From positions 1 through 64,000 of IMG/VR virus record IMGVR_UViG_3300042291_000228: 64,000 nucleotides of DNA; one strand, written 5' to 3'. A program made the position numbers and the translations under genes. Of this stretch, positions 7,411 to 14,935 are shown piece by piece (position 1 is the stretch's first letter; each line of letters opens with the position of its first letter). This DNA comes from a virus. The notes under the pieces are model-generated. The model ran no database searches, was not told the DNA's origin, and worked only from the letters and a program-made list of their open reading frames with translations.

Positions 7411-8535
7411 TTATTTCTTTCTAAAAAGACTAAACCCTTCAAGTACCATACTGCCAGTATTAATTTTTCCGGCTGTCTGAACTTGTTTGGTCATTTGACC
7501 AAATGCTCCTGCACCTGCTGTTTTAGCAGAAGCTGCTGCTGTGCGTTTAGCACGTTTAGCAATAGCGCCTGGTGTTTGACTTAGTTGTCCTGCTACTTTA
7601 CCACCTGTTTTTGTAGGTGCGGCAGGCGCTGCTGGTGGTTCTGCGGCAGGTGCTGCATTTGGATTTCCAGGTTTAGCTGTATTTGTTTTGCTTACCGGTG
7701 CATTAGCCATTGTATTAGCTGGTGCTGCCGCTGTTGGTTCAGCTGCTGGTGCTTCAGGAGCCGCTGCCGCAGGCGCTGTTGGTTCTGCTGCTGGAGCAGG
7801 TGTAGCTGCTGGAGCTGCTGCCGGCGCAGCACCTGCTGCGGGTTTTGCTGCTGGAGCTGCCATTGATTTTTGTAGCAACTGTAAAATTCTTTGCTTGCCT
7901 TTTTTATCTAGCTTATCAATATTTGCTTTTACTTGAGTGTACATTGTTTGACCAGCCTGTGCTTGATCTTGACCTGCAAGTGCAGCGCCAGTTTTAGCAG
8001 CTGCCTGTTTTGCAACCGTACCTTGTATTGGCTTAGCTTGCGCTGTGCCTTTTGGTCCGGCCTTGTTGATATCTGTAGCACTAGGTGGAGTTGTAGCTCC
8101 CGCTGTTGGTGCTGGATCTTCATCGTCTGCTGCTCCAGCAGAACTACCTGCTGGTGTAGAACTGCCAACTACATTTGGATCGTTAAATGCTGATAATCCT
8201 TGAGATTGACCTGCTTTTACTCCCGCTAAAAAACCTTTGGGTTTTGTAGAAGTTCCGCCACTTCCTGCAGCAGGTTTTGCACCTGCTGCGCCACCGGCAC
8301 CTGCTGCTGCACCACCTGCTGCTGGATCTGCATCATCCCCTGCGCTGGCCACAGTAGCTTTACCTGCCTGAAATCCTTTTTTAGCTGCTGCGCCAAGTCC
8401 AGCAACACCACCTGCTACTGCTCCGACACCTTTAGCCAACGCACCTACACCTTTGCCCACAGCAGATCCAATTTTATTTAGAATTGGACCTTCGTCAAGT
8501 TGATGTGATTCAATTAATATTTCTTGTATTCTCAT
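7411..8535 (-). CDS. Ala/Pro/Gly-rich protein, probable internal head protein
   Basis: N-terminus MRIQEILIESHQLDEG resembles a T4 capsid-targeting sequence and L-x-E protease sites; low complexity. Confidence 0.5.
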   Translation of the reverse strand: MRIQEILIESHQLDEGPILNKIGSAVGKGVGALAKGVGAVAGGVAGLGAAAKKGFQAGKATVASAGDDADPAAGGAAAGAGGAAGAKPAAGSGGTSTKPKGFLAGVKAGQSQGLSAFNDPNVVGSSTPAGSSAGAADDEDPAPTAGATTPPSATDINKAGPKGTAQAKPIQGTVAKQAAAKTGAALAGQDQAQAGQTMYTQVKANIDKLDKKGKQRILQLLQKSMAAPAAKPAAGAAPAAAPAATPAPAAEPTAPAAAAPEAPAAEPTAAAPANTMANAPVSKTNTAKPGNPNAAPAAEPPAAPAAPTKTGGKVAGQLSQTPGAIAKRAKRTAAASAKTAGAGAFGQMTKQVQTAGKINTGSMVLEGFSLFRKK

Positions 8536-8536
8536 A

Positions 8537-10039
8537 TCATGCTTTTCCTATTTGTTTGGTGAGATATTGTATCATGCGTTGTCGATCTTTAGTATTTAAC
8601 TGCATTATTGACTTTTTAATTTCTGCATATCCGCCAGTTGCCGCTTGAGCTGCAGGCTCAGAAGAGATTTTTAAATCTGCGTAGACTTTTTTCACTACAT
8701 CGTCGCCGACTCCAGCGCCAGTTAAAATTTTGGCTACTTCTTCGCTGTCTGTAGGGCTTCCAGCTTTTTGCCAGGCTGAATTTAATTTGTCAGCAGTGAA
8801 CTTAGTTGTTAAATTTTTACCAACAGTTTTTAGTTTGTTCATGCCTTTGGCGGCAGCACCTTTGATAAAATCCAATGGGCCTTCGTTCAATTGTTGCTGT
8901 GCGCAAACTCGATTGAACACCATGTAGATCTGACCTTCACTTAATTTTTTACCATTAGTAGTAAATCCTTCTTTTGCTGCTGGTTTTTCGCCTGCTGCGC
9001 CTGCTGCTTGACCAGCGGCTGCTCCACCAACAGCTGATGCTGCCTGTGTTAGGCCTTTGATCCACTGTAATAAACTATCATTGTTTAATGCAAGATCTTT
9101 TGCAGCACCTGCAATATCTTTCATTTGTGCTTTATAATCCGCAGAATGCACCATTCTGCCAAGTCGTTGAAGTTCAGTAAATGCTGTAGTATCTCCATTC
9201 TGCATGGCCTTTATTGCTGATCTAATTCCCGATGCTGCATCTGCATCAACAACAACATCGAACCCTTGAGTCATTTCAGTATGTTCCATACCAAACGAAC
9301 TCAACTTTCGTGTTGCCTTATAACTTATTGTTTCAAGTCCAGTATCACCAATTGGAATAGACTTTTCACGTAGGCCCGCAGCCCACTTACCAACACCAGC
9401 CATTGCGGCTGCTGTAATACCTGCAACAATACCTGCTGTTGCTCCACGTCCGATCGCGGTTGAAGCTTTTTGACCTTGTAGCAACCGGTCAGCAATATTA
9501 ACAATGCCCACGGCAATTGCAGTTCCTGTTCCAATGGCCAACACGCTTGCACCTACACCGCCTGCTACTGCAACACCCAATGCTGCGGCAACAGAGCCTG
9601 CAATACCCAGTAAGAATTTGTGTAGTTTAGGATTATTCTTGGCATACTCACCGTACTTGGCCAAACTAGCAGCTAGTTTTGGATTTTCAGCAGCAATCTT
9701 TGATTTGATCTCTTCAAATTTTTGATCAAATGCTTTAACTGGACTACTGTCCTGTAGCATGCCTCCAAACTTATTAAACCAAACATCACTGATTTTACCT
9801 GGAGCAGCTTTGGCAGCATCTAGGCCTTTGCCCAACATACTACGATCAGATCCTTTTTCAACAGCCGTGAATAGCTGTTGTATTTGATCAGGAGTTAATG
9901 CAACTTCACAAAGAACAGGATGTATTTCTTTTTCCCATTTAGTAAAGTAAGTATCTCCTTGACCAATGCTTTCAAATATACTTTTACGAGAAGTATATTC
10001 AGAAGTATCAGATGTCAGTAGTAGATTATGAATTTTCAT
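8537..10039 (-). CDS. probable internal head / ejected protein with hydrophobic segments
   Basis: 500 aa, late promoter upstream, LSEG/LNEG motifs, Gly/Ala hydrophobic stretch, C-terminal module shared with the neighbouring gene. Confidence 0.5.
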   Translation of the reverse strand: MKIHNLLLTSDTSEYTSRKSIFESIGQGDTYFTKWEKEIHPVLCEVALTPDQIQQLFTAVEKGSDRSMLGKGLDAAKAAPGKISDVWFNKFGGMLQDSSPVKAFDQKFEEIKSKIAAENPKLAASLAKYGEYAKNNPKLHKFLLGIAGSVAAALGVAVAGGVGASVLAIGTGTAIAVGIVNIADRLLQGQKASTAIGRGATAGIVAGITAAAMAGVGKWAAGLREKSIPIGDTGLETISYKATRKLSSFGMEHTEMTQGFDVVVDADAASGIRSAIKAMQNGDTTAFTELQRLGRMVHSADYKAQMKDIAGAAKDLALNNDSLLQWIKGLTQAASAVGGAAAGQAAGAAGEKPAAKEGFTTNGKKLSEGQIYMVFNRVCAQQQLNEGPLDFIKGAAAKGMNKLKTVGKNLTTKFTADKLNSAWQKAGSPTDSEEVAKILTGAGVGDDVVKKVYADLKISSEPAAQAATGGYAEIKKSIMQLNTKDRQRMIQYLTKQIGKA

Positions 10040-10062
10040 TATTATTCCAAAGCCTTATACGT

Positions 10063-10070
10063 TATTTATT
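10063..10070 (-). promoter_or_regulatory. late promoter AATAAATA
   Basis: Same motif as at other structural operons, 23 nt upstream of ATG 10039. Confidence 0.6.
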
Positions 10071-10074
10071 ACAG

Positions 10075-10585
10075 ATATGAGCTAAAGCTCATATTCGTTT
10101 TCGCTTGTCGCTCAACGAATTTTCTTTCTCTTAACATTGATTACATTAAGTGCGAAGCACTTTAAATATTATCTAGATTGTTCAGTCACACTTAGCCCTG
10201 ACGGGCTAAAAATGAACATTATCTGAGTTGCACAATGTCACATAGCGTTACAGCATTACCAAGGCGGTCGTCCGGTACCTTTAGCTGCGTCTTAATACGA
10301 CGGCGGGTCTGCAAATATACGCTAACATACTTACAGCCGTGGGTTCTTCACCCTCTTTTAGCCTTGAATAACTTTTTCTTGTACAGTAAACCGGTTCTAT
10401 TAGGCATATCCGATCATGGTCCTGTTAAGGATACTACTGTTACAACCCCTCTACCAAGTAGGGAATTCCATTGACTGCGATCCGAGATCCAGCTTTAAGG
10501 GCACACTTGCAACGCCGGTGCGGGCTTATTTGGCAGTTATTTGCCTGGATTTATTGAGCCTAGGTGTGCCTTGCGGCAGTGTGTG
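10075..10585 (-). ncRNA. candidate large structured non-coding RNA (boundaries approximate)
   Basis: Only long intergenic region in the window; visibly GC-richer; many hairpins; G-U pairs and a GNRA loop favour the - strand; a long-range helix joins 10278-10287 and 10490-10500. Confidence 0.6.
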
Positions 10586-10589
10586 TTTG

Positions 10590-11024
10590 TTAAATTTTAG
10601 GTTTTTTGAGGATGTGTGAGCCGTGAACTCGAACCTGTATGTGACCGTTGTACCAGTCAGTTGATTCTAGAACTTTGTGTTTAAATTGTTCTCTTGCCTC
10701 GATGTAGCTGCATTCTGATTTGTTTTTGCAGTAGAATAGAATTTCTCTGGTGAAGTTTTCTTTGCCTAAGGCCTGTATGTCTGCTGTTAAAGCATCACTA
10801 GAACCATAATAGTCCTTCCAATCGCTTTCAATTTTGCCTCTAATTTTCTTTTTCTTCTTTTTGCCGTTCTTCAAAGTCACTGTTTTATAAGTGGTCTTTG
10901 CAAATTTAGCTAGTTTTTTGCCTATATATTTGCGCCCAGAGACGACATTTGTAATAAGATATACGAATCCGATATACTCTTCCGAGATTTCATCAACGAT
11001 TTTTTTCTTATATAACCATGTCAT
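10590..11024 (-). CDS. GIY-YIG endonuclease, catalytic domain only, with Lys-rich insertion
   Basis: GFVYLITN..RKYIGKK, YYGSS, FTREIL, conserved E (YIEARE) and N (WYNG). Confidence 0.85.
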   Translation of the reverse strand: MTWLYKKKIVDEISEEYIGFVYLITNVVSGRKYIGKKLAKFAKTTYKTVTLKNGKKKKKKIRGKIESDWKDYYGSSDALTADIQALGKENFTREILFYCKNKSECSYIEAREQFKHKVLESTDWYNGHIQVRVHGSHILKKPKI

Positions 11025-11254
11025 CCCTTATGTATCTTAGGGGGCCTTCCTACCATGCCTTTTCTGGCTTGTTTTCGTATTTCTCGTTTTTCCTGTATTT
11101 CTACTCGTCGTATACTTGCCTGATCTCTAATTTCTGATAGTGCGTTTCTTGCCTTAATGCCTGCTTCGTCTGAATTTTTATATTCAAAACGATCCTGCCA
11201 TTTGAAATATTCCTGAAAGGCCTGGATCATTTTGTCGTGCGCTTCTGTGGTCAA
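11021..11254 (-). CDS. small basic helical protein, possibly Hc1 (histone H1-like) family
   Basis: AGIKARNALSEIR..RRVEIQEKR helical-hairpin pattern with a basic tail; coupled to both neighbours. Confidence 0.4.
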   Translation of the reverse strand: MTTEAHDKMIQAFQEYFKWQDRFEYKNSDEAGIKARNALSEIRDQASIRRVEIQEKREIRKQARKGMVGRPPKIHKG

Positions 11255-13029
11255 GCAACAATCTCCACATCGTTGCTGTAACTTGTAAATCCGTTCTCCT
11301 TGATAACTTTGAGCACGTGATTAACACGACTGGTTAGATCATCTCTATGCGAGATTAGGAAAACATTCTTGTTGCGTTCACGAGTCATCTTCTTGAGCAC
11401 AGCAATACTTGATTCAACTCCGCTGGCATCCATACCTGAATCCACAAGTTCGTCAATAAACAATAGATTAATAGCCTGGTATAGGTTTTCCCACACATCG
11501 CGGAATGCCCACGATAAGGATAGAATCAGTCTGTTACGTTCACCCCTACTGAGATTGTCAAAGTCTAGATCCTGTCCCAACTGTGTGATAATTACAGTGA
11601 GATCATTTTGAAATTCTACAGTGTGCGGCAGGCCAATCTTGTCTAGATAATAGGTCAATCGTTGATTGAGATAGGCTAAGTTTTGATCAATTATGCGTTT
11701 ACGGATAAAACTGTCTTTGTTGGTTAACAACTTGTGTAAAAACTCTTGATGATCTTTGATTCTGATTATCTCATTAAGATTGTCATAGTCAATGACCTGA
11801 ACTGCGGTGTGTTTTAATTCTTCAATCTGTTCAAGATAGGGATTGGTTTCGCCTGCTTTGATCTCTATGTCACGTTCGAATCCGCTGAGTGTATTTTTGT
11901 GATTCAACGCCTGTTCTAGATTGTCGTAGATCACTGCGGGCATTTCACCTAGTTCACCTAACTTTTTAACAGCATCAGTATGTTCCAACAATTGTGTATT
12001 AGTTGCTAATGCCTGCAAGGCAGTTTCTTGCAGATCTTTACGTTTCTTTTCTAATAACGCTACCTGTTTGTCATCGTGAAAACCTTGTCCACAACTATAA
12101 CAGGTATGATTTTCTAAACTAGCAATGTCTGCTTTAAGTTTATCCATCTCTTTGATTTCTCTAGATTCGTCTAGCTCGCACCGTTTGATCCAGCTAGTGA
12201 GATCGTTGATAGCCTTACGTTTCGTGTTGTAGACATCTAATGCTCTATGTGCGGCAATTTCTTGATCGATATCTATGTCTAGAAGCTTTTCAATTGCTCT
12301 GGCAAGATTAGTGATGCTGGTTTCATTTTGCTCTTCCCACATCTTTTGTTTACGTTCTAGTGACTCTATGCTTTGTTGTATGCGATCGTTAGATATTTTT
12401 ATAGTTTCAATCTTGGTATTTTCTGTAACTATAGAATCCTTGCTGATCTTGATTAATTCTTTAAGAGCCTCGGCTTTTTCACTCAACAAGGTAATACCTA
12501 GTAGTTGTTCAATGATGGCTCGTTGATCCGCAGCCTTCATCGACAGAAACGGTTCTGTGTAAGTGTTTAAGGCCACAAGATGTTTAAACATGTCATGAGT
12601 CATACCAAATACATCTTCGATGGATTTTTGTGTTTCTCTACTGTCGCCTTGACTTTCATCTTGATCTAGATTTTCTTGTTCTCGTCCATTAACAGTAAAC
12701 TTTAAAACGTTGGGCTTACGACCTCTTTCTATGTGATAGTCAACTCCATCCTTTTCAAAACTCATAGTAACCAACATGCCTTTGCCGTTGATTTTGTTTA
12801 CAAGATTATCTTTCTTGATGTTTGTCAGTGCATTGCCGTAGATGGCATAGCTGAGACCGTTGATAATAGTAGTTTTACCTGTGCCATTTCGAGCTCCACT
12901 GTCGTCGCCACCTAGGTCAAGGTTTTCGCCTAAGACCAAAGTAAGTTGTCCGCGATCAAAATCAATAGCCTGTGTTTGTGCGCCCACACTCATGAAATTG
13001 CGCACGGTTAAATTTTTAATCTTAATCAT
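11251..13029 (-). CDS. gp46: recombination ATPase, T4 gp46 / SbcC-Rad50
   Basis: Walker A NGTGKTT, coiled coil, zinc hook CYSC, signature LSRGE, Walker B LFIDE, ISH. Confidence 0.95.
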   Translation of the reverse strand: MIKIKNLTVRNFMSVGAQTQAIDFDRGQLTLVLGENLDLGGDDSGARNGTGKTTIINGLSYAIYGNALTNIKKDNLVNKINGKGMLVTMSFEKDGVDYHIERGRKPNVLKFTVNGREQENLDQDESQGDSRETQKSIEDVFGMTHDMFKHLVALNTYTEPFLSMKAADQRAIIEQLLGITLLSEKAEALKELIKISKDSIVTENTKIETIKISNDRIQQSIESLERKQKMWEEQNETSITNLARAIEKLLDIDIDQEIAAHRALDVYNTKRKAINDLTSWIKRCELDESREIKEMDKLKADIASLENHTCYSCGQGFHDDKQVALLEKKRKDLQETALQALATNTQLLEHTDAVKKLGELGEMPAVIYDNLEQALNHKNTLSGFERDIEIKAGETNPYLEQIEELKHTAVQVIDYDNLNEIIRIKDHQEFLHKLLTNKDSFIRKRIIDQNLAYLNQRLTYYLDKIGLPHTVEFQNDLTVIITQLGQDLDFDNLSRGERNRLILSLSWAFRDVWENLYQAINLLFIDELVDSGMDASGVESSIAVLKKMTRERNKNVFLISHRDDLTSRVNHVLKVIKENGFTSYSNDVEIVA

Positions 13030-14036
13030 AGGTCGTTGTATATCTCCAACAGCAGACTCTTTTCAAAGGTACCGCTGTCAATGGCGTTTATCTGATTCAT
13101 CACAATGGTATCTACACTTTCAAAATTAATATCGATGGGTGTTGAGTTGGCATCAACTTCAACTTTTTCCGGAATCAACATAAGCTCTCGCAGTTTGTAC
13201 TGGGGCACAAATGTTTCTTTGATGAAATTTGCTTCTTCAAAACTGAGAGGCAAGTCAATGGTCACACGACAGTGCATACGTTCTCGTAGCAATTGATCTG
13301 GCTTGTCAATAATTTGACTCAGTTTATATGTTCTAAAGGTAGGCTGTCCGGGCCAAGACTTAAACTCAGGTGAGCCCCCCCACTCTAGCATCATCATACC
13401 ACGATCATCGTCACCTGCATCTGCATAGTTGTGCGGAAAAGCATTACCAATGTAATGAATATTTCTACTGTGTTGACGTTTGTGAAAGTGCCCTGTAAAC
13501 ACATATTCCTGATTTACAAAATGTCCAGATTGAATTGTGCCGTGATCAGGCATCTGTATCATGGCATTCATATAAAAGCTAGGCAATTCCAAATGTCCGA
13601 ACATATATCTGCTTTTGATATTAGGAATATCTCGCCACTCGTCAGCAACTAGCCAAGGCATAATAGTAACATCGCCTAGAGTTAGTGTTTCTCTAATTGG
13701 AATAATATTAGGAAACAGGCGCATAAACTCTACTGAGTTAATTTCACGCTTGTCTTTGTAGAACAGGTCGTGATTGCCTAGAATGAAATAGACTTTTTCA
13801 AAACTTTGACTTAACTTTTCTAAGTTGCTGACAGTATAGTTCATAGTACTAACATCTGTAGTGCTACGATTATGATGCCAGTCACCTAGAAAGATTGCAG
13901 TTTCGCAACCTTGTGCTTTTGCAGTATCACAAAACCAAGAAACAAAATCTTCGCAATCTTGATTATGTGTGCGACTGCCACCTTTTAGTCCAAAATGTAT
14001 ATCAGTAAAACAAGCTACTTTTTTAAATAGGTTCAT
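13026..14036 (-). CDS. gp47: recombination nuclease, T4 gp47 / SbcD-Mre11
   Basis: Metallophosphoesterase motifs DIHFG, GDWHH, GNHD, GHFH; AAGGAG RBS; coupled to gp46. Confidence 0.95.
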   Translation of the reverse strand: MNLFKKVACFTDIHFGLKGGSRTHNQDCEDFVSWFCDTAKAQGCETAIFLGDWHHNRSTTDVSTMNYTVSNLEKLSQSFEKVYFILGNHDLFYKDKREINSVEFMRLFPNIIPIRETLTLGDVTIMPWLVADEWRDIPNIKSRYMFGHLELPSFYMNAMIQMPDHGTIQSGHFVNQEYVFTGHFHKRQHSRNIHYIGNAFPHNYADAGDDDRGMMMLEWGGSPEFKSWPGQPTFRTYKLSQIIDKPDQLLRERMHCRVTIDLPLSFEEANFIKETFVPQYKLRELMLIPEKVEVDANSTPIDINFESVDTIVMNQINAIDSGTFEKSLLLEIYNDL

Positions 14037-14051
14037 AGAATCTCCTTAGTT

Positions 14052-14081
14052 ATTGTAACATATATACAACAACTAGGTCAA
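14052..14081 (-). promoter_or_regulatory. sigma70-type promoter for gp47-gp46 operon
   Basis: TTGACC-18 nt-TACAAT with TG extension. Confidence 0.65.
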
Positions 14082-14935
14082 TCCCAATCACTACCATCCA
14101 CTGAACTAGTACTCACTGCACCGCTGACTCCGTTTCCGCTGTTCTGTCGAGTCCAACTTGGATTCATTCCATTCATTTCTAAAATATCATCTCGGATATT
14201 TTGATTGCGTTTTTCAATGTTGATGATCCTAACAAAACTGTTGGTAACAGCAGCAGTATAGTAGGCAAAAGGATTGTCCGATTTACTTTCATCGAACTGT
14301 AGGCCGATTTGAGTAAGCTGTAAGATGGCCTGCCCACGCATTTCGTCGTTGTAGGTATACCCTCTAACATTGCCACGAGTGGCATATCTTTCACAGAGTT
14401 TAATAAACATACGAGCTAGATTGTTAGTCATTTGTCCATGTTCTTTGTTGAACTCGCCATCGAGTAATCCACCTTTCCAATGGCTTTTTCCCACGCAGAT
14501 TAAATTATCGTTGTCATCAAACTTCCAATGTTGGAATGGTGGAAAATTTACCTTGTCGTGACTGTCTGCGGTATTTTTCAAAGTCTTTTTACGACCTGGC
14601 GCTAGCGGAATATGATCAAAGGTCATTACACGAAATACCAAATCTTGCTTTTGTACCTTGCGATAGTCCACTTCGAATTCTTTAATGGATATTTTCTTAC
14701 CACCTGCAATCACTGCTGCTTCGTGAGCCTGTTTTGCCATTTTTATAGCTCTATTTCTTTTGGCTTCTGCCACGGTTCTTACATTGATTTTTGCAAGATT
14801 AACAACAATAAGATCGTATTCGCTGTATTCGGGCAGAGTAAAACTACAGTAGGTATTTTTACTAAGATGTATTTCTCGGAGCAAATCCTTGTTGGTAAGG
14901 TATTTGATCTTGGGAGGCTGAGCAATGATAGTCAT
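14078..14935 (-). CDS. gp55: late-transcription sigma factor, T4 gp55-like
   Basis: YLTNKDLL, NVRGYTYNDEM, FDESKSDNPFAYYT, FVRIINIEK; T4 synteny 55-47-46. Confidence 0.9.
   Translation of the reverse strand: MTIIAQPPKIKYLTNKDLLREIHLSKNTYCSFTLPEYSEYDLIVVNLAKINVRTVAEAKRNRAIKMAKQAHEAAVIAGGKKISIKEFEVDYRKVQKQDLVFRVMTFDHIPLAPGRKKTLKNTADSHDKVNFPPFQHWKFDDNDNLICVGKSHWKGGLLDGEFNKEHGQMTNNLARMFIKLCERYATRGNVRGYTYNDEMRGQAILQLTQIGLQFDESKSDNPFAYYTAAVTNSFVRIINIEKRNQNIRDDILEMNGMNPSWTRQNSGNGVSGAVSTSSVDGSDWD

What the first reader, a model, noticed from the sequence alone, without database searches (positions are those of the whole stretch)
10075..11024. Large structured ncRNA directly downstream of a minimal GIY-YIG nuclease: candidate RNA-protein system
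Seen: this is the only ~550-nt gap in a tightly packed genome, and it begins right after the GIY-YIG stop codon. On the - strand it contains UGCC-GCAA-GGCA (GNRA loop, 10567-10578), GGCA/UGCC (10532-10545), UCCU-UAAC-AGGA (10420-10431), GGGU-GAAGA-ACCC (10341-10353), CGUC/GACG (10288-10302) and an 11-bp stem CUGUAAGUAUG/UAUAUUUGCAG (10309-10336) whose three G-U pairs only work on this strand. A long-range helix, CCUU..AGCUG (10490-10500) with CAGCU..AAGG (10278-10287), closes a ~200-nt domain. The 144-aa nuclease lacks the C-terminal DNA-binding domain typical of GIY-YIG homing enzymes but has a KNGKKKKKKIRGK insertion. Known: large phage RNAs (GOLLD, ROOL) and nuclease-linked RNAs (HEARO, omega RNA) exist. 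I do not recognise tRNA, tmRNA, RNase P or intron cores here. Inference: an undescribed ncRNA co-transcribed with gp47-gp46-GIY-YIG. It could be a guide or scaffold for the nuclease, or an R-loop primer for origin or recombination-dependent replication.
Basis: partly seen in the sequence, partly recalled or inferred. Interest (0 to 1): 0.85.

Follow-up and report, generated by a model that had tools for sequence, protein, structure and literature searches.

The report
Full-length twin-box Polynucleobacter-1 phage RNA
The gene-free 550 bases behind a small nuclease gene of this uncultured T4-like phage encode a real, knotted non-coding RNA of about 470 bases; its first third is an orphan RNA motif catalogued in 2010, the rest is uncatalogued and carries one 7-letter word twice, and nothing shows that it guides the nuclease.

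Summary
Window 10076-10545 (- strand) is a conserved, strand-specific, pseudoknotted RNA. On an unbiased alignment of 82 relatives, 83.5% of cells pair, against 69% shuffled and 37-44% slid.

It is not wholly new. Positions 10379-10526 match Rfam RF01718 (Polynucleobacter-1) at 71.4 bits (cut-off 37). Weinberg et al. 2010 already noted these RNAs lie behind PSSM2_218-like genes, which is this GIY-YIG family.

The 3' two-thirds are not in Rfam. They hold two pseudoknots and two boxes (10218-10229 and 10168-10179). The 7-nt word in the boxes changed about 31 times on the tree, yet the two copies are identical in 80 of 81 aligned relatives; the odd one, L172, is misaligned and by eye also carries its word twice.

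The guide-RNA idea is not supported:
- The nuclease family occurs without the RNA in the cultured phages examined (P-SSM2, Melnitz, Variovorax phage); no cultured-phage record matches the RNA.
- The RNA occurs without it, behind a PDDEXK nuclease in some phages.
- In bacterial islands the RNA sits between a DUF6641 gene and a miniature tyrosine recombinase.
- No target for the word was found.

This scan has reported the same RNA family several times on other DNA. Its function remains unknown.

The parts
10076..10545 (-). Full-length structured RNA, about 470 nt. The 5' end is uncertain within 10545-10589. The 3' end lies after hairpin P14.
   Evidence: Conserved over its whole length in 64 of 76 loci behind GIY-YIG homologues, and through its 3' domain in 10 more. 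16-helix model: 83.5% of cells paired vs 69.2% shuffled (0/500) and 37-44% slid. Fold z -3.0 on this strand only.
10379..10526 (-). 5' domain, the Rfam Polynucleobacter-1 motif (RF01718). Helices: P1 10517-10521/10501-10505, P2 10475-10492, P3 10447-10463, P4 10435-10440/10383-10388, P5 10420-10431, P6 10410-10415/10389-10394.
   Evidence: cmscan 71.4 bits (gathering 37), model 1-141 of 141. P1, P4 and P6 are 96-100% paired with compensatory changes.
10148..10365 (-). Core domain B, not in Rfam. Holds P7 10341-10353, P8 10309-10336, P9 10284-10287/10251-10254, P10 10278-10281/10261-10264, P11 10191-10210 and P12 10148-10162.
   Evidence: The most widely conserved part by blastn and nhmmer. It is present even where the Rfam motif is not detected. 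Covariation.
10320..10325 (-). Pseudoknot PK1, 5' strand: the UUAGCG loop of P8 pairs with CGCUAU at 10242-10247.
   Evidence: 97.1% paired; 6 of 6 pairs change on both sides; mutual information.
10297..10301 (-). Pseudoknot PK2, 5' strand: GUCGU pairs with ACGAC at 10267-10271, in the loop of P10.
   Evidence: 99.8% paired; 3 of 5 pairs change on both sides (UA 47 / CG 35, and so on).
10218..10229 (-). Box 1 (A-ACUC-AGAUAAU). The 7-nt word AGAUAAU is at 10218-10224.
10168..10179 (-). Box 2 (A-AUCU-AGAUAAU). The same 7-nt word is at 10168-10174, 50 nt downstream of box 1.
   Evidence: The word is identical to box 1 in 80 of 81 aligned relatives, despite at least 31 changes on the tree; in the odd one, L172, box 2 is misaligned and by eye carries the same word. 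In bacterial-type RNAs it is identical in 89 loci, differs only at the last letter in 10, and box 2 was not found reliably in about 20.
10094..10119 (-). Hairpin P13, with the loop GAGCGACAAGCGAA (two AGCGA motifs).
   Evidence: The loop motif GAGCGnnAGCGA is nearly invariant in phage copies and also present in the bacterial copies read by eye. MAFFT aligns the stem poorly (58% paired).
10076..10093 (-). Terminal hairpin P14.
   Evidence: Present in all relatives with varying stem sequence. Bacterial copies follow it with a U-rich tail.
10063..10070 (-). T4-type late-promoter-like AATAAATA, 23 nt before the ATG of the next gene (8537-10039).
   Evidence: TAAATA is conserved about 20 nt before the downstream ATG in related loci. 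A gp55-like late sigma factor lies at 14078-14935.
10590..11024 (-). 144-aa GIY-YIG nuclease gene (SegE-type catalytic domain only).
   Evidence: PF19835 E 2.8e-33. phrog_447 E 3e-37. 39% identical to P-SSM2 PSSM2_218.

Best explanation
Shown: the gap encodes one long (about 470 nt), strand-specific, doubly pseudoknotted non-coding RNA. It is a full-length member of the family whose 5' 141 nt are catalogued as Rfam Polynucleobacter-1.

The RNA has three parts:
- a 5' domain, which is the Rfam motif and is replaceable in some relatives;
- a universal core with two homologous units, each a helix followed by GUGAC, a short spacer, CAA-YYY and a 7-nt word;
- two 3' hairpins.

The two words are essentially always identical to each other, yet they differ between lineages.

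Inferred: the RNA is a free-standing, trans-acting RNA or RNP scaffold. It is probably made as the tail of the gp47-gp46-nuclease transcript or from a promoter of its own. Its two exposed words are read by base pairing with one nucleic-acid partner, met twice. That partner has not been identified and is not encoded nearby.

The adjacent GIY-YIG is most likely an ordinary recombination or repair nuclease of the gp46/gp47 module. It is a neighbour by synteny, not a protein that needs the RNA.

My odds: real RNA and family membership 0.95; words read by base pairing 0.4; any functional partnership with the nuclease below 0.1.
For: RNA and structure:
- RF01718 match at 71.4 bits, full model.
- Whole-gap conservation in 74 of 76 informative loci.
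- Covariation well above shuffled and slid controls on a MAFFT alignment not fitted to the structure.
- Many G-U pairs, and a fold z-score on the - strand only.

Free-standing rather than a leader:
- A late-promoter-like TAAATA lies between the RNA and the next gene.
- In loci such as L054 and L060 the next genes are convergent.
- Bacterial copies are separate genes, divergent from DUF6641 (82 of 84 loci).

Words read by pairing:
- 80 of 81 aligned phage RNAs have identical words, across at least 31 parsimony changes. L172, the odd one, is misaligned.
- More than 20 different words exist across phage and bacterial types.
- The fixed differences CUC vs UCU sit directly beside the word. This argues against gene conversion, and a protein reader would hardly tolerate change at nearly every position.

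Nuclease independent of the RNA:
- The protein family matches 501 cultured-phage records.
- No RNA was found in the three cultured phages checked: Melnitz, Variovorax phage and P-SSM2. Blastn of the gap matches no cultured-phage record.
- In some RNA-bearing phages a PF24608 PDDEXK nuclease (phrog_244, 'RusA-like resolvase') replaces it at the same place after gp46. This looks like displacement of a recombination nuclease.
Against: - No transcript data could be obtained, so the RNA's ends, abundance and timing are unknown.
- No pairing partner for the words was found in the RNA itself, within 3 kb either side, in the 64-kb window, or in the flanks of 80 phage and 86 bacterial loci.
- About 31 concerted changes with no box1-unequal-to-box2 intermediate among 81 sequences is hard to achieve by stepwise selection alone. 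A copying mechanism is not excluded.
- In every setting the RNA lies beside a small DNA-cutting or DNA-joining enzyme that has only a catalytic domain: GIY-YIG, PDDEXK, or a roughly 210-aa tyrosine recombinase. That could be more than synteny.
Confidence: 0.5

Rival explanations
1. The RNA programs a DNA enzyme. It supplies DNA recognition to the neighbouring catalytic-domain-only enzymes: GIY-YIG or PDDEXK nuclease in phages, and a miniature tyrosine recombinase in bacterial islands. The twin words would pair with two identical 7-bp cores (cleavage or crossover sites), in the manner of IS110 bridge RNAs.
For: - Three unrelated small DNA enzymes are the immediate co-oriented neighbours: GIY-YIG in 74 of 76 loci; PDDEXK_15 in L106, L118, L127, L155 and L196; and a roughly 210-aa tyrosine recombinase downstream in 59 of 62 bacterial loci.
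- The GIY-YIG lacks a DNA-binding domain.
- The words are freely variable but must match each other. From general knowledge, the overlap regions of tyrosine-recombinase sites behave the same way, and 7 bp is a typical overlap length.
Against: - The GIY-YIG family works without the RNA in the cultured phages checked; the family matches 501 cultured-phage records and blastn of the RNA matches none.
- Own-word counts in the flanks are not above those of other loci's words. Phage loci: 1.36 vs 1.17 per 10 kb for the commonest word. Bacterial loci: 34 vs 47 expected in sense and 63 vs 51 in antisense.
- No covarying site lies after the recombinase gene.
- The 8-mer matches around two bacterial copies lie in non-homologous genes and are taken as chance.
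- There is no Rfam similarity to HEARO, omega or other guide RNAs.
Confidence: 0.07
2. The RNA is a cis-acting regulatory element. It would be either a leader or riboswitch for the gene that follows (the 2010 classification), or a 3'-UTR or insulator element for the early operon that precedes it.
For: - Weinberg et al. 2010 scored the motif as probably cis-regulatory (table).
- In bacteria, a hairpin with a U-rich tail and then an ORF or the recombinase follow in the same direction.
- In phages, the RNA starts within a few nt of the GIY-YIG stop codon.
Against: - In phages, a late-promoter-like element separates the RNA from the next gene, and some loci have convergent genes downstream.
- The genes that follow differ widely.
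- A roughly 470-nt RNA with two pseudoknots and fast-changing twin words is unlike known ligand-sensing leaders, whose pockets are conserved.
Confidence: 0.13
3. The RNA is a decoy or sponge, for example an anti-defence or regulatory RNA. It would sequester a host or mobile-element factor, with the repeated AGCGA-type motifs and the twin units as binding sites. Phages would have captured it from bacterial islands.
For: - The same RNA architecture occurs in sporadic bacterial islands (4 of 151 Burkholderiales genomes sampled, 1 of 33 in one family). These islands sit beside defence genes such as Zorya ZorC and ZorD.
- The bacterial copy read in L329 carries the motif AGCGAAA or AGCGAUA five times.
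- The P13 loop GAGCGnnAGCGA is nearly invariant across phage copies and is present in the bacterial copies read.
Against: - The twin words vary while the P13 loop does not, so the two are not read by one factor.
- No cognate protein is known.
- The location in defence islands was seen in only two or three genomes.
Confidence: 0.1
4. The function lies in the DNA, not in an RNA product: a replication origin with an R-loop primer, iterons, or a recombination site.
For: The two boxes are direct repeats 50 bp apart, and the region lies beside recombination genes.
Against: - Helices rely on G-U pairs that would be A-C mismatches on the other strand.
- Pseudoknot covariation is present, and folding is strand-specific.
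- There is no AT-rich unwinding element, and no repeats beyond the two boxes.
Confidence: 0.04

Closest known systems
Polynucleobacter-1 RNA motif (Rfam RF01718; Weinberg et al. 2010, Genome Biol 11:R31, PMC2864571)
   Same: Window 10379-10526 matches the whole 141-position model at 71.4 bits. The source is an uncultured IMG/VR phage record; the family was described from freshwater and estuary samples. The position behind a PSSM2_218-like gene was noted in the 2010 supplement. The flanking sequences printed in the 2010 alignment already show the conserved 3' extension.
   Different: The catalogued motif covers only the first third. The pseudoknotted core, the twin boxes and the 3' hairpins are not modelled or described. 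The 2010 paper found no copy in any purified phage and read the motif as probably cis-regulatory. Here, a late promoter or convergent genes downstream argue against that reading in phages. Some relatives keep the core but lack a detectable RF01718 domain.
IS110 bridge RNA, and HEARO/omega RNAs of IscB and TnpB (RNA-guided DNA enzymes)
   Same: A structured ncRNA is encoded next to a small DNA enzyme. Short segments vary freely between lineages while the scaffold is conserved.
   Different: There is no sequence or structure match in Rfam. The neighbouring enzymes are of other families. The GIY-YIG family exists widely without the RNA. No DNA target matching the words was found. Both variable segments are identical, rather than specifying two different DNAs.
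GOLLD and ROOL large phage-associated RNAs
   Same: Large, intricately folded RNAs of unknown function, found in phages and prophage-like islands.
   Different: No Rfam match. This RNA is smaller. The related loci scanned had no tRNA genes except L172. The twin-word feature is not described for GOLLD or ROOL.
Free-standing GIY-YIG homing endonucleases of T4 (SegA-G, I-TevI)
   Same: The protein carries the SegE-type GIY-YIG catalytic domain (PF19835).
   Different: At 144 aa it has no C-terminal DNA-binding domain. Within its own clade it keeps a fixed place after gp46 and stays 66-99% identical, and the wider family matches 501 cultured-phage records. It therefore behaves as a resident gene, not a sporadic selfish one.

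Membership tests
Rfam RF01718 Polynucleobacter-1 RNA | Covariance-model score above the curated gathering score, over the full model | tested here: met
   71.4 bits against 37, model positions 1-141 of 141, at 10379-10526 on the - strand.
Rfam RF01718 Polynucleobacter-1 RNA | The model's helices are kept by compensatory changes in relatives | tested here: met
   P1 97.8%, P4 96.1% and P6 99.8% paired, with changes on both sides. P2 and P3 are weaker on the MAFFT alignment.
Rfam RF01718 Polynucleobacter-1 RNA | Lies behind a gene of the GOS11034 / PSSM2_218 family (2010 supplement) | tested here: met
   The upstream 144-aa protein is 39% identical to PSSM2_218 (E 9e-23).
RNA-guided nuclease or recombinase systems (omega RNA/HEARO, bridge RNA) | Protein and RNA occur together obligatorily | tested here: not met
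   The protein family matches 501 cultured-phage records. Melnitz, Variovorax phage and P-SSM2 have the gene but no RNA. The RNA occurs with PDDEXK or with no nuclease upstream.
RNA-guided nuclease or recombinase systems (omega RNA/HEARO, bridge RNA) | A variable guide segment with a matching nucleic-acid target | tested here: inconclusive
   Variable words exist. No matching site is enriched or positionally conserved in the flanks. Host genomes and distant sites were not testable.
RNA-guided nuclease or recombinase systems (omega RNA/HEARO, bridge RNA) | Similarity to a known guide-RNA scaffold | tested here: not met
   No such Rfam hit, even at E up to 10.
Cis-regulatory leader or riboswitch | Sits in the 5' UTR of a consistent downstream gene, with no promoter in between | tested here: not met
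   Late-promoter-like TAAATA lies between the RNA and the next ATG. Downstream genes are convergent in L054 and L060. Downstream ORFs vary. In bacteria a recombinase follows in 59 of 62 loci, often after another ORF.
GOLLD / ROOL / other large Rfam RNAs | Covariance-model match | tested here: not met
   No hit at gathering or E-value thresholds. Weak manA (20 bits) and cow-rumen-2 (21 bits) hits in the window did not recur in 11 relatives.
GIY-YIG homing endonuclease (Seg / I-TevI type) | GIY-YIG catalytic domain | tested here: met
   PF19835 E 2.8e-33.
GIY-YIG homing endonuclease (Seg / I-TevI type) | C-terminal DNA-binding domain and sporadic, mobile distribution | tested here: not met
   144 aa, with the profile covering residues 3-129. 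Fixed position after gp46 in nearly all related loci. The family matches 501 cultured-phage records.
Type III toxin-antitoxin RNA (ToxI-like repeats) | Tandem near-identical repeat units directly before a toxin gene | tested here: not met
   Only two units, alike over about 35 nt and embedded in a roughly 470-nt fold. No conserved downstream protein in phages.

The most novel reading that the evidence does not exclude
The twin-box RNA is the programmable specificity subunit of minimal DNA enzymes. In bacterial islands it would direct a roughly 210-aa tyrosine recombinase that has only a catalytic domain. In T4-like phages it would direct the domain-poor GIY-YIG or PDDEXK nuclease. The two identical 7-nt words would each pair with one of two DNA sites that must share the same core. 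That would be a bridge-RNA-like principle in enzyme families not known to use RNA guides.
Probability: 0.05. Interest if true: 0.95.

Novelty: new variant of a known kind. Interest (0 to 1): 0.6.

Why it matters
A motif that has sat as a function-less orphan in Rfam since 2010 turns out to be the first third of a much larger, doubly knotted RNA. That RNA is common in uncultured T4-like phages (IMG/VR records) and in small mobile islands of bacteria recovered from metagenomes.

Its two copies of one fast-changing 7-nt word are kept identical through about 31 independent switches. This is a rare and sharp evolutionary signal that something reads the word, most simply by base pairing.

For annotation:
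- The RF01718 model should be extended.
- The neighbouring 'NAD synthetase' label on 145-aa phage proteins should read GIY-YIG nuclease.

Tried and rejected
- Pattern scan of genome contigs: it returned only chance matches in high-GC genomes, and none is the RNA by nhmmer.
- blastn of the gap against cultured phages: nothing.
- Weak Rfam hits in the window (manA 20 bits, cow-rumen-2 21 bits) looked suggestive, but they did not recur in 11 relatives. I dropped them as chance.
- Search for a partner of the twin words. None of these found one:
  - mutual information inside the RNA;
  - 12-nt complements within 3 kb either side;
  - the whole window;
  - 7-nt complements inside the RNA, where the only recurrent site is a G/U-rich strand that pairs with any purine-rich word;
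  - own-word enrichment in the flanks of 80 phage loci, where an apparent two-fold excess vanished under a composition-matched control;
  - the same test on 86 bacterial-type loci, where a cluster at -553 is a coding segment of DUF6641 in one lineage;
  - the region after the recombinase gene.
- Matching 8-mers about 7 kb and 4 kb from the RNA in two bacterial genomes lie in non-homologous genes and are taken as chance.
- Box-to-box pairing, self-complementarity, a full match to an anticodon loop, twin mini-ORFs and -10 promoter readings were considered by eye and do not fit the variation.
- tRNA clustering: none, except in L172.
- Sequence search of solved structures with the nuclease: no useful hit.
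- No DUF6641 in this phage record.
- Literature: only the 2010 paper names the motif, and nothing was found on DUF6641 or on an RNA linked to a GIY-YIG gene.
Full report
**What is there**

All genes around the finding lie on the - strand:
- a gp55-like late sigma factor (14078-14935; phrog_12791);
- gp47 (13026-14036) and gp46 (11251-13029);
- a 77-aa ORF;
- a 144-aa GIY-YIG protein (10590-11024; PF19835, E 2.8e-33);
- 550 ORF-free bases (10040-10589);
- a 500-aa protein of no known family.

The window belongs to a 102-kb IMG/VR virus record. The gap is the only sizeable ORF-free stretch. The one other stretch lacking ORFs of 100 aa or more holds two small ORFs.

**Known part**

Rfam's Polynucleobacter-1 model (RF01718) matches 10379-10526 on the - strand over its full length, at 71.4 bits against a cut-off of 37.

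The only paper in the library that names the motif is Weinberg et al. 2010. Its supplement makes three points:
- most copies lie behind genes of family GOS11034, with possible homology to PSSM2_218 of cyanophage P-SSM2;
- no copy was found in a purified phage;

PSSM2_218 is a 145-aa protein labelled 'NAD synthetase'. It is 39% identical to the window's GIY-YIG (E 9e-23). So the RNA-nuclease adjacency was seen in 2010, without the protein being recognised as a nuclease.

**The RNA is much larger than the catalogued motif**

I fetched 80 IMG/VR loci through the protein.
- 64 carry the whole gap sequence directly after the stop codon.
- 10 more carry its 3' domain.
- 2 carry none, and 4 are cut off.

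The best-conserved part is 10145-10340, which lies outside the Rfam model.

An RNA-first sample used the invariant GGUACCGGnnnACCGCC as a search pattern. It gave 89 further loci, all in the order gp47, gp46, 0-4.5 kb of variable genes, then nuclease and RNA.

I aligned 82 sequences under 95% identical with MAFFT, which knows nothing of structure. On that alignment I counted a 16-helix model with two pseudoknots:

| Measure | Model | Shuffled | Partner slid |
|---|---|---|---|
| Cells paired | 83.5% | 69.2% (0/500 reach it) | 37-44% |
| Covariation score | 0.406 | 0.165 | 0.06-0.11 |

The strongest helices are:
- P8 (10309-10336), with compensatory change in 10 of 10 pairs;
- PK1, the P8 loop UUAGCG with CGCUAU at 10242-10247, 97% paired;
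- PK2, GUCGU at 10297-10301 with ACGAC at 10267-10271, 99.8% paired;
- P9, P1, P4 and P6.

Many pairs are G-U, and only the - strand folds better than shuffles (z -3.0 vs -0.3). The product is therefore an RNA read in the same direction as the genes.

**Twin boxes**

The core holds two homologous units. Each has a helix ending in GCUA(A/U), then GUGAC, a short spacer, CAA-YYY and a 7-nt word.

In the window both words read AGAUAAU (10218-10224 and 10168-10174). Nine different words occur across the relatives. On a tree built without the box columns, the word changes at least 31 times. The two copies are nevertheless identical in 80 of 81 aligned sequences, and the single exception (L172) is an alignment slip.

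The three bases just before the word differ constantly between the boxes (CUC vs UCU). Gene conversion is therefore an unlikely cause.

Bacterial-type copies from metagenomes show the same rule with other words, including AGCGAAA, GACAAAA, ACCAAAA, AUCAAAA, AUCGAAA, AGAGAAA and GGUGAAA. Of 120 loci, 89 have identical words, 10 differ only at the last letter, and in about 20 box 2 could not be found reliably.

I noticed this before opening the scan's earlier notes, several of which describe the same twin 7-letter word on other genomes.

**Who reads the word?**

I found no complementary partner in any of these places:
- inside the RNA;
- within 3 kb either side;
- in the 64-kb window;
- as own-word enrichment in the flanks of 80 phage and 86 bacterial loci;
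- after the recombinase gene.

Suggestive 8-mers near two bacterial copies lie in unrelated genes. Base pairing with a partner encoded elsewhere, or by the host, is the simplest fit, but it is an inference.

**Is the RNA tied to the nuclease?**

Within this phage clade, yes by position. As a rule, no.
- The protein family (phrog_447) matches 501 cultured-phage records, among them cyanophages, Melnitz, phiN3 and ACP17.
- P-SSM2, Melnitz and a Variovorax phage have the gene but not the RNA.
- blastn of the gap finds no cultured phage.
- In L106, L118, L127, L155 and L196 the RNA follows a PF24608 PDDEXK endonuclease (phrog_244, 'RusA-like resolvase') instead.

A recombination nuclease just after gp46/gp47, replaceable by another recombination nuclease, looks like ordinary module synteny.

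**Not simply a leader**

A conserved TAAATA, late-promoter-like, lies about 20 nt before the next gene's ATG. In several loci the next genes are convergent.

**Bacterial copies**

Four of 151 sampled Burkholderiales genomes carry the motif, all 1.7-1.9 Mb in size. Only 1 of 33 genomes in one family does.

In 120 metagenome loci:
- the RNA is divergent from a DUF6641 gene in 82 of 84 loci with enough upstream sequence;
- a roughly 210-aa tyrosine recombinase follows on the same strand in 59 of 62 loci with enough downstream sequence;
- no GIY-YIG is present.

One genome places the module beside the Zorya genes zorC and zorD. The phage record has no DUF6641.

So the RNA moves between lytic phages and integrative islands. 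In each setting it sits beside a small DNA-cutting or DNA-joining enzyme. This keeps a small probability alive for an RNA-programmed enzyme, but every direct test I could run came back empty.

**Verdict**

This is a real, large, knotted RNA and a member of a known but barely described family. Its extended architecture and twin-word rule are not in the literature I could search. The guide-for-GIY-YIG reading is not supported, and the function is open.

Noticed in passing
L172:3911-4304 and L172:5169-5243: A related phage contig carrying the RNA also encodes a permuted (two-piece, alpha-type) tmRNA (RF04321, 92.5 bits). It also has a tRNA with a CUA anticodon, which ARAGORN calls tRNA-Pyl and which is a possible amber suppressor.
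   Followed up: no
window 10590-11024, and cultured-phage records: Many cultured-phage records label this roughly 145-aa GIY-YIG family (phrog_447, PSSM2_218) 'NAD synthetase'. Pfam shows it is a SegE-type GIY-YIG domain, so the label looks like a propagated error.
   Followed up: partly
L329:7730-10340, and metagenome loci L332-L451: Bacterial module: a DUF6641 gene divergent from the RNA (82 of 84 loci) and a miniature tyrosine recombinase of about 210 aa downstream on the RNA's strand (59 of 62 loci). In one genome it sits next to Zorya ZorC (EH_Signature) and ZorD (SNF2 plus Mrr).
   Followed up: partly
L085, L093, L097, L104, L109, L110, L114, L116, L125, L128 and others: These relatives keep the twin-box core about 200 nt after the nuclease gene, but nhmmer finds no 5' domain there; in the six also scanned with Rfam (L085, L093, L097, L110, L128, L174) RF01718 is not detected. 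The 5' domain seems exchangeable.
   Followed up: partly
window 10094-10119; L329:9255-9285: The P13 hairpin loop GAGCGnnAGCGA(A) is nearly invariant in the phage copies and present in the bacterial copies read, unlike the twin words. It may be a separate binding site.
   Followed up: no
window 8537-10039 and 7411-8535: Two consecutive Ala/Gly-rich proteins of 500 and 374 aa have similar N-termini (MKIHNLL..., MRIQEIL...) and no firm family (one borderline DUF3040 hit, E 1.6e-05). The first follows a late-promoter-like AATAAATA. Their relatives downstream of the RNA vary from 140 to 650 aa.
   Followed up: no
window 14078-14935: The gp55-like late sigma factor is 285 aa (phrog_12791, E 2.7e-79). 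From memory, this is about 100 aa longer than T4 gp55.
   Followed up: no
window 10543-10589: In the window's subgroup, about 45 extra bases separate the nuclease stop codon from the RNA. They hold the hairpin at 10567-10578, and one relative (L007) shows a compensatory change in it. The element AGGCUCAAUAAAU here resembles the sequence upstream of bacterial copies and a late promoter, so the RNA may have a promoter of its own.
   Followed up: no
L106 (between gp46 and the RNA): One relative has an RNase H gene between the PDDEXK nuclease and the RNA.
   Followed up: no
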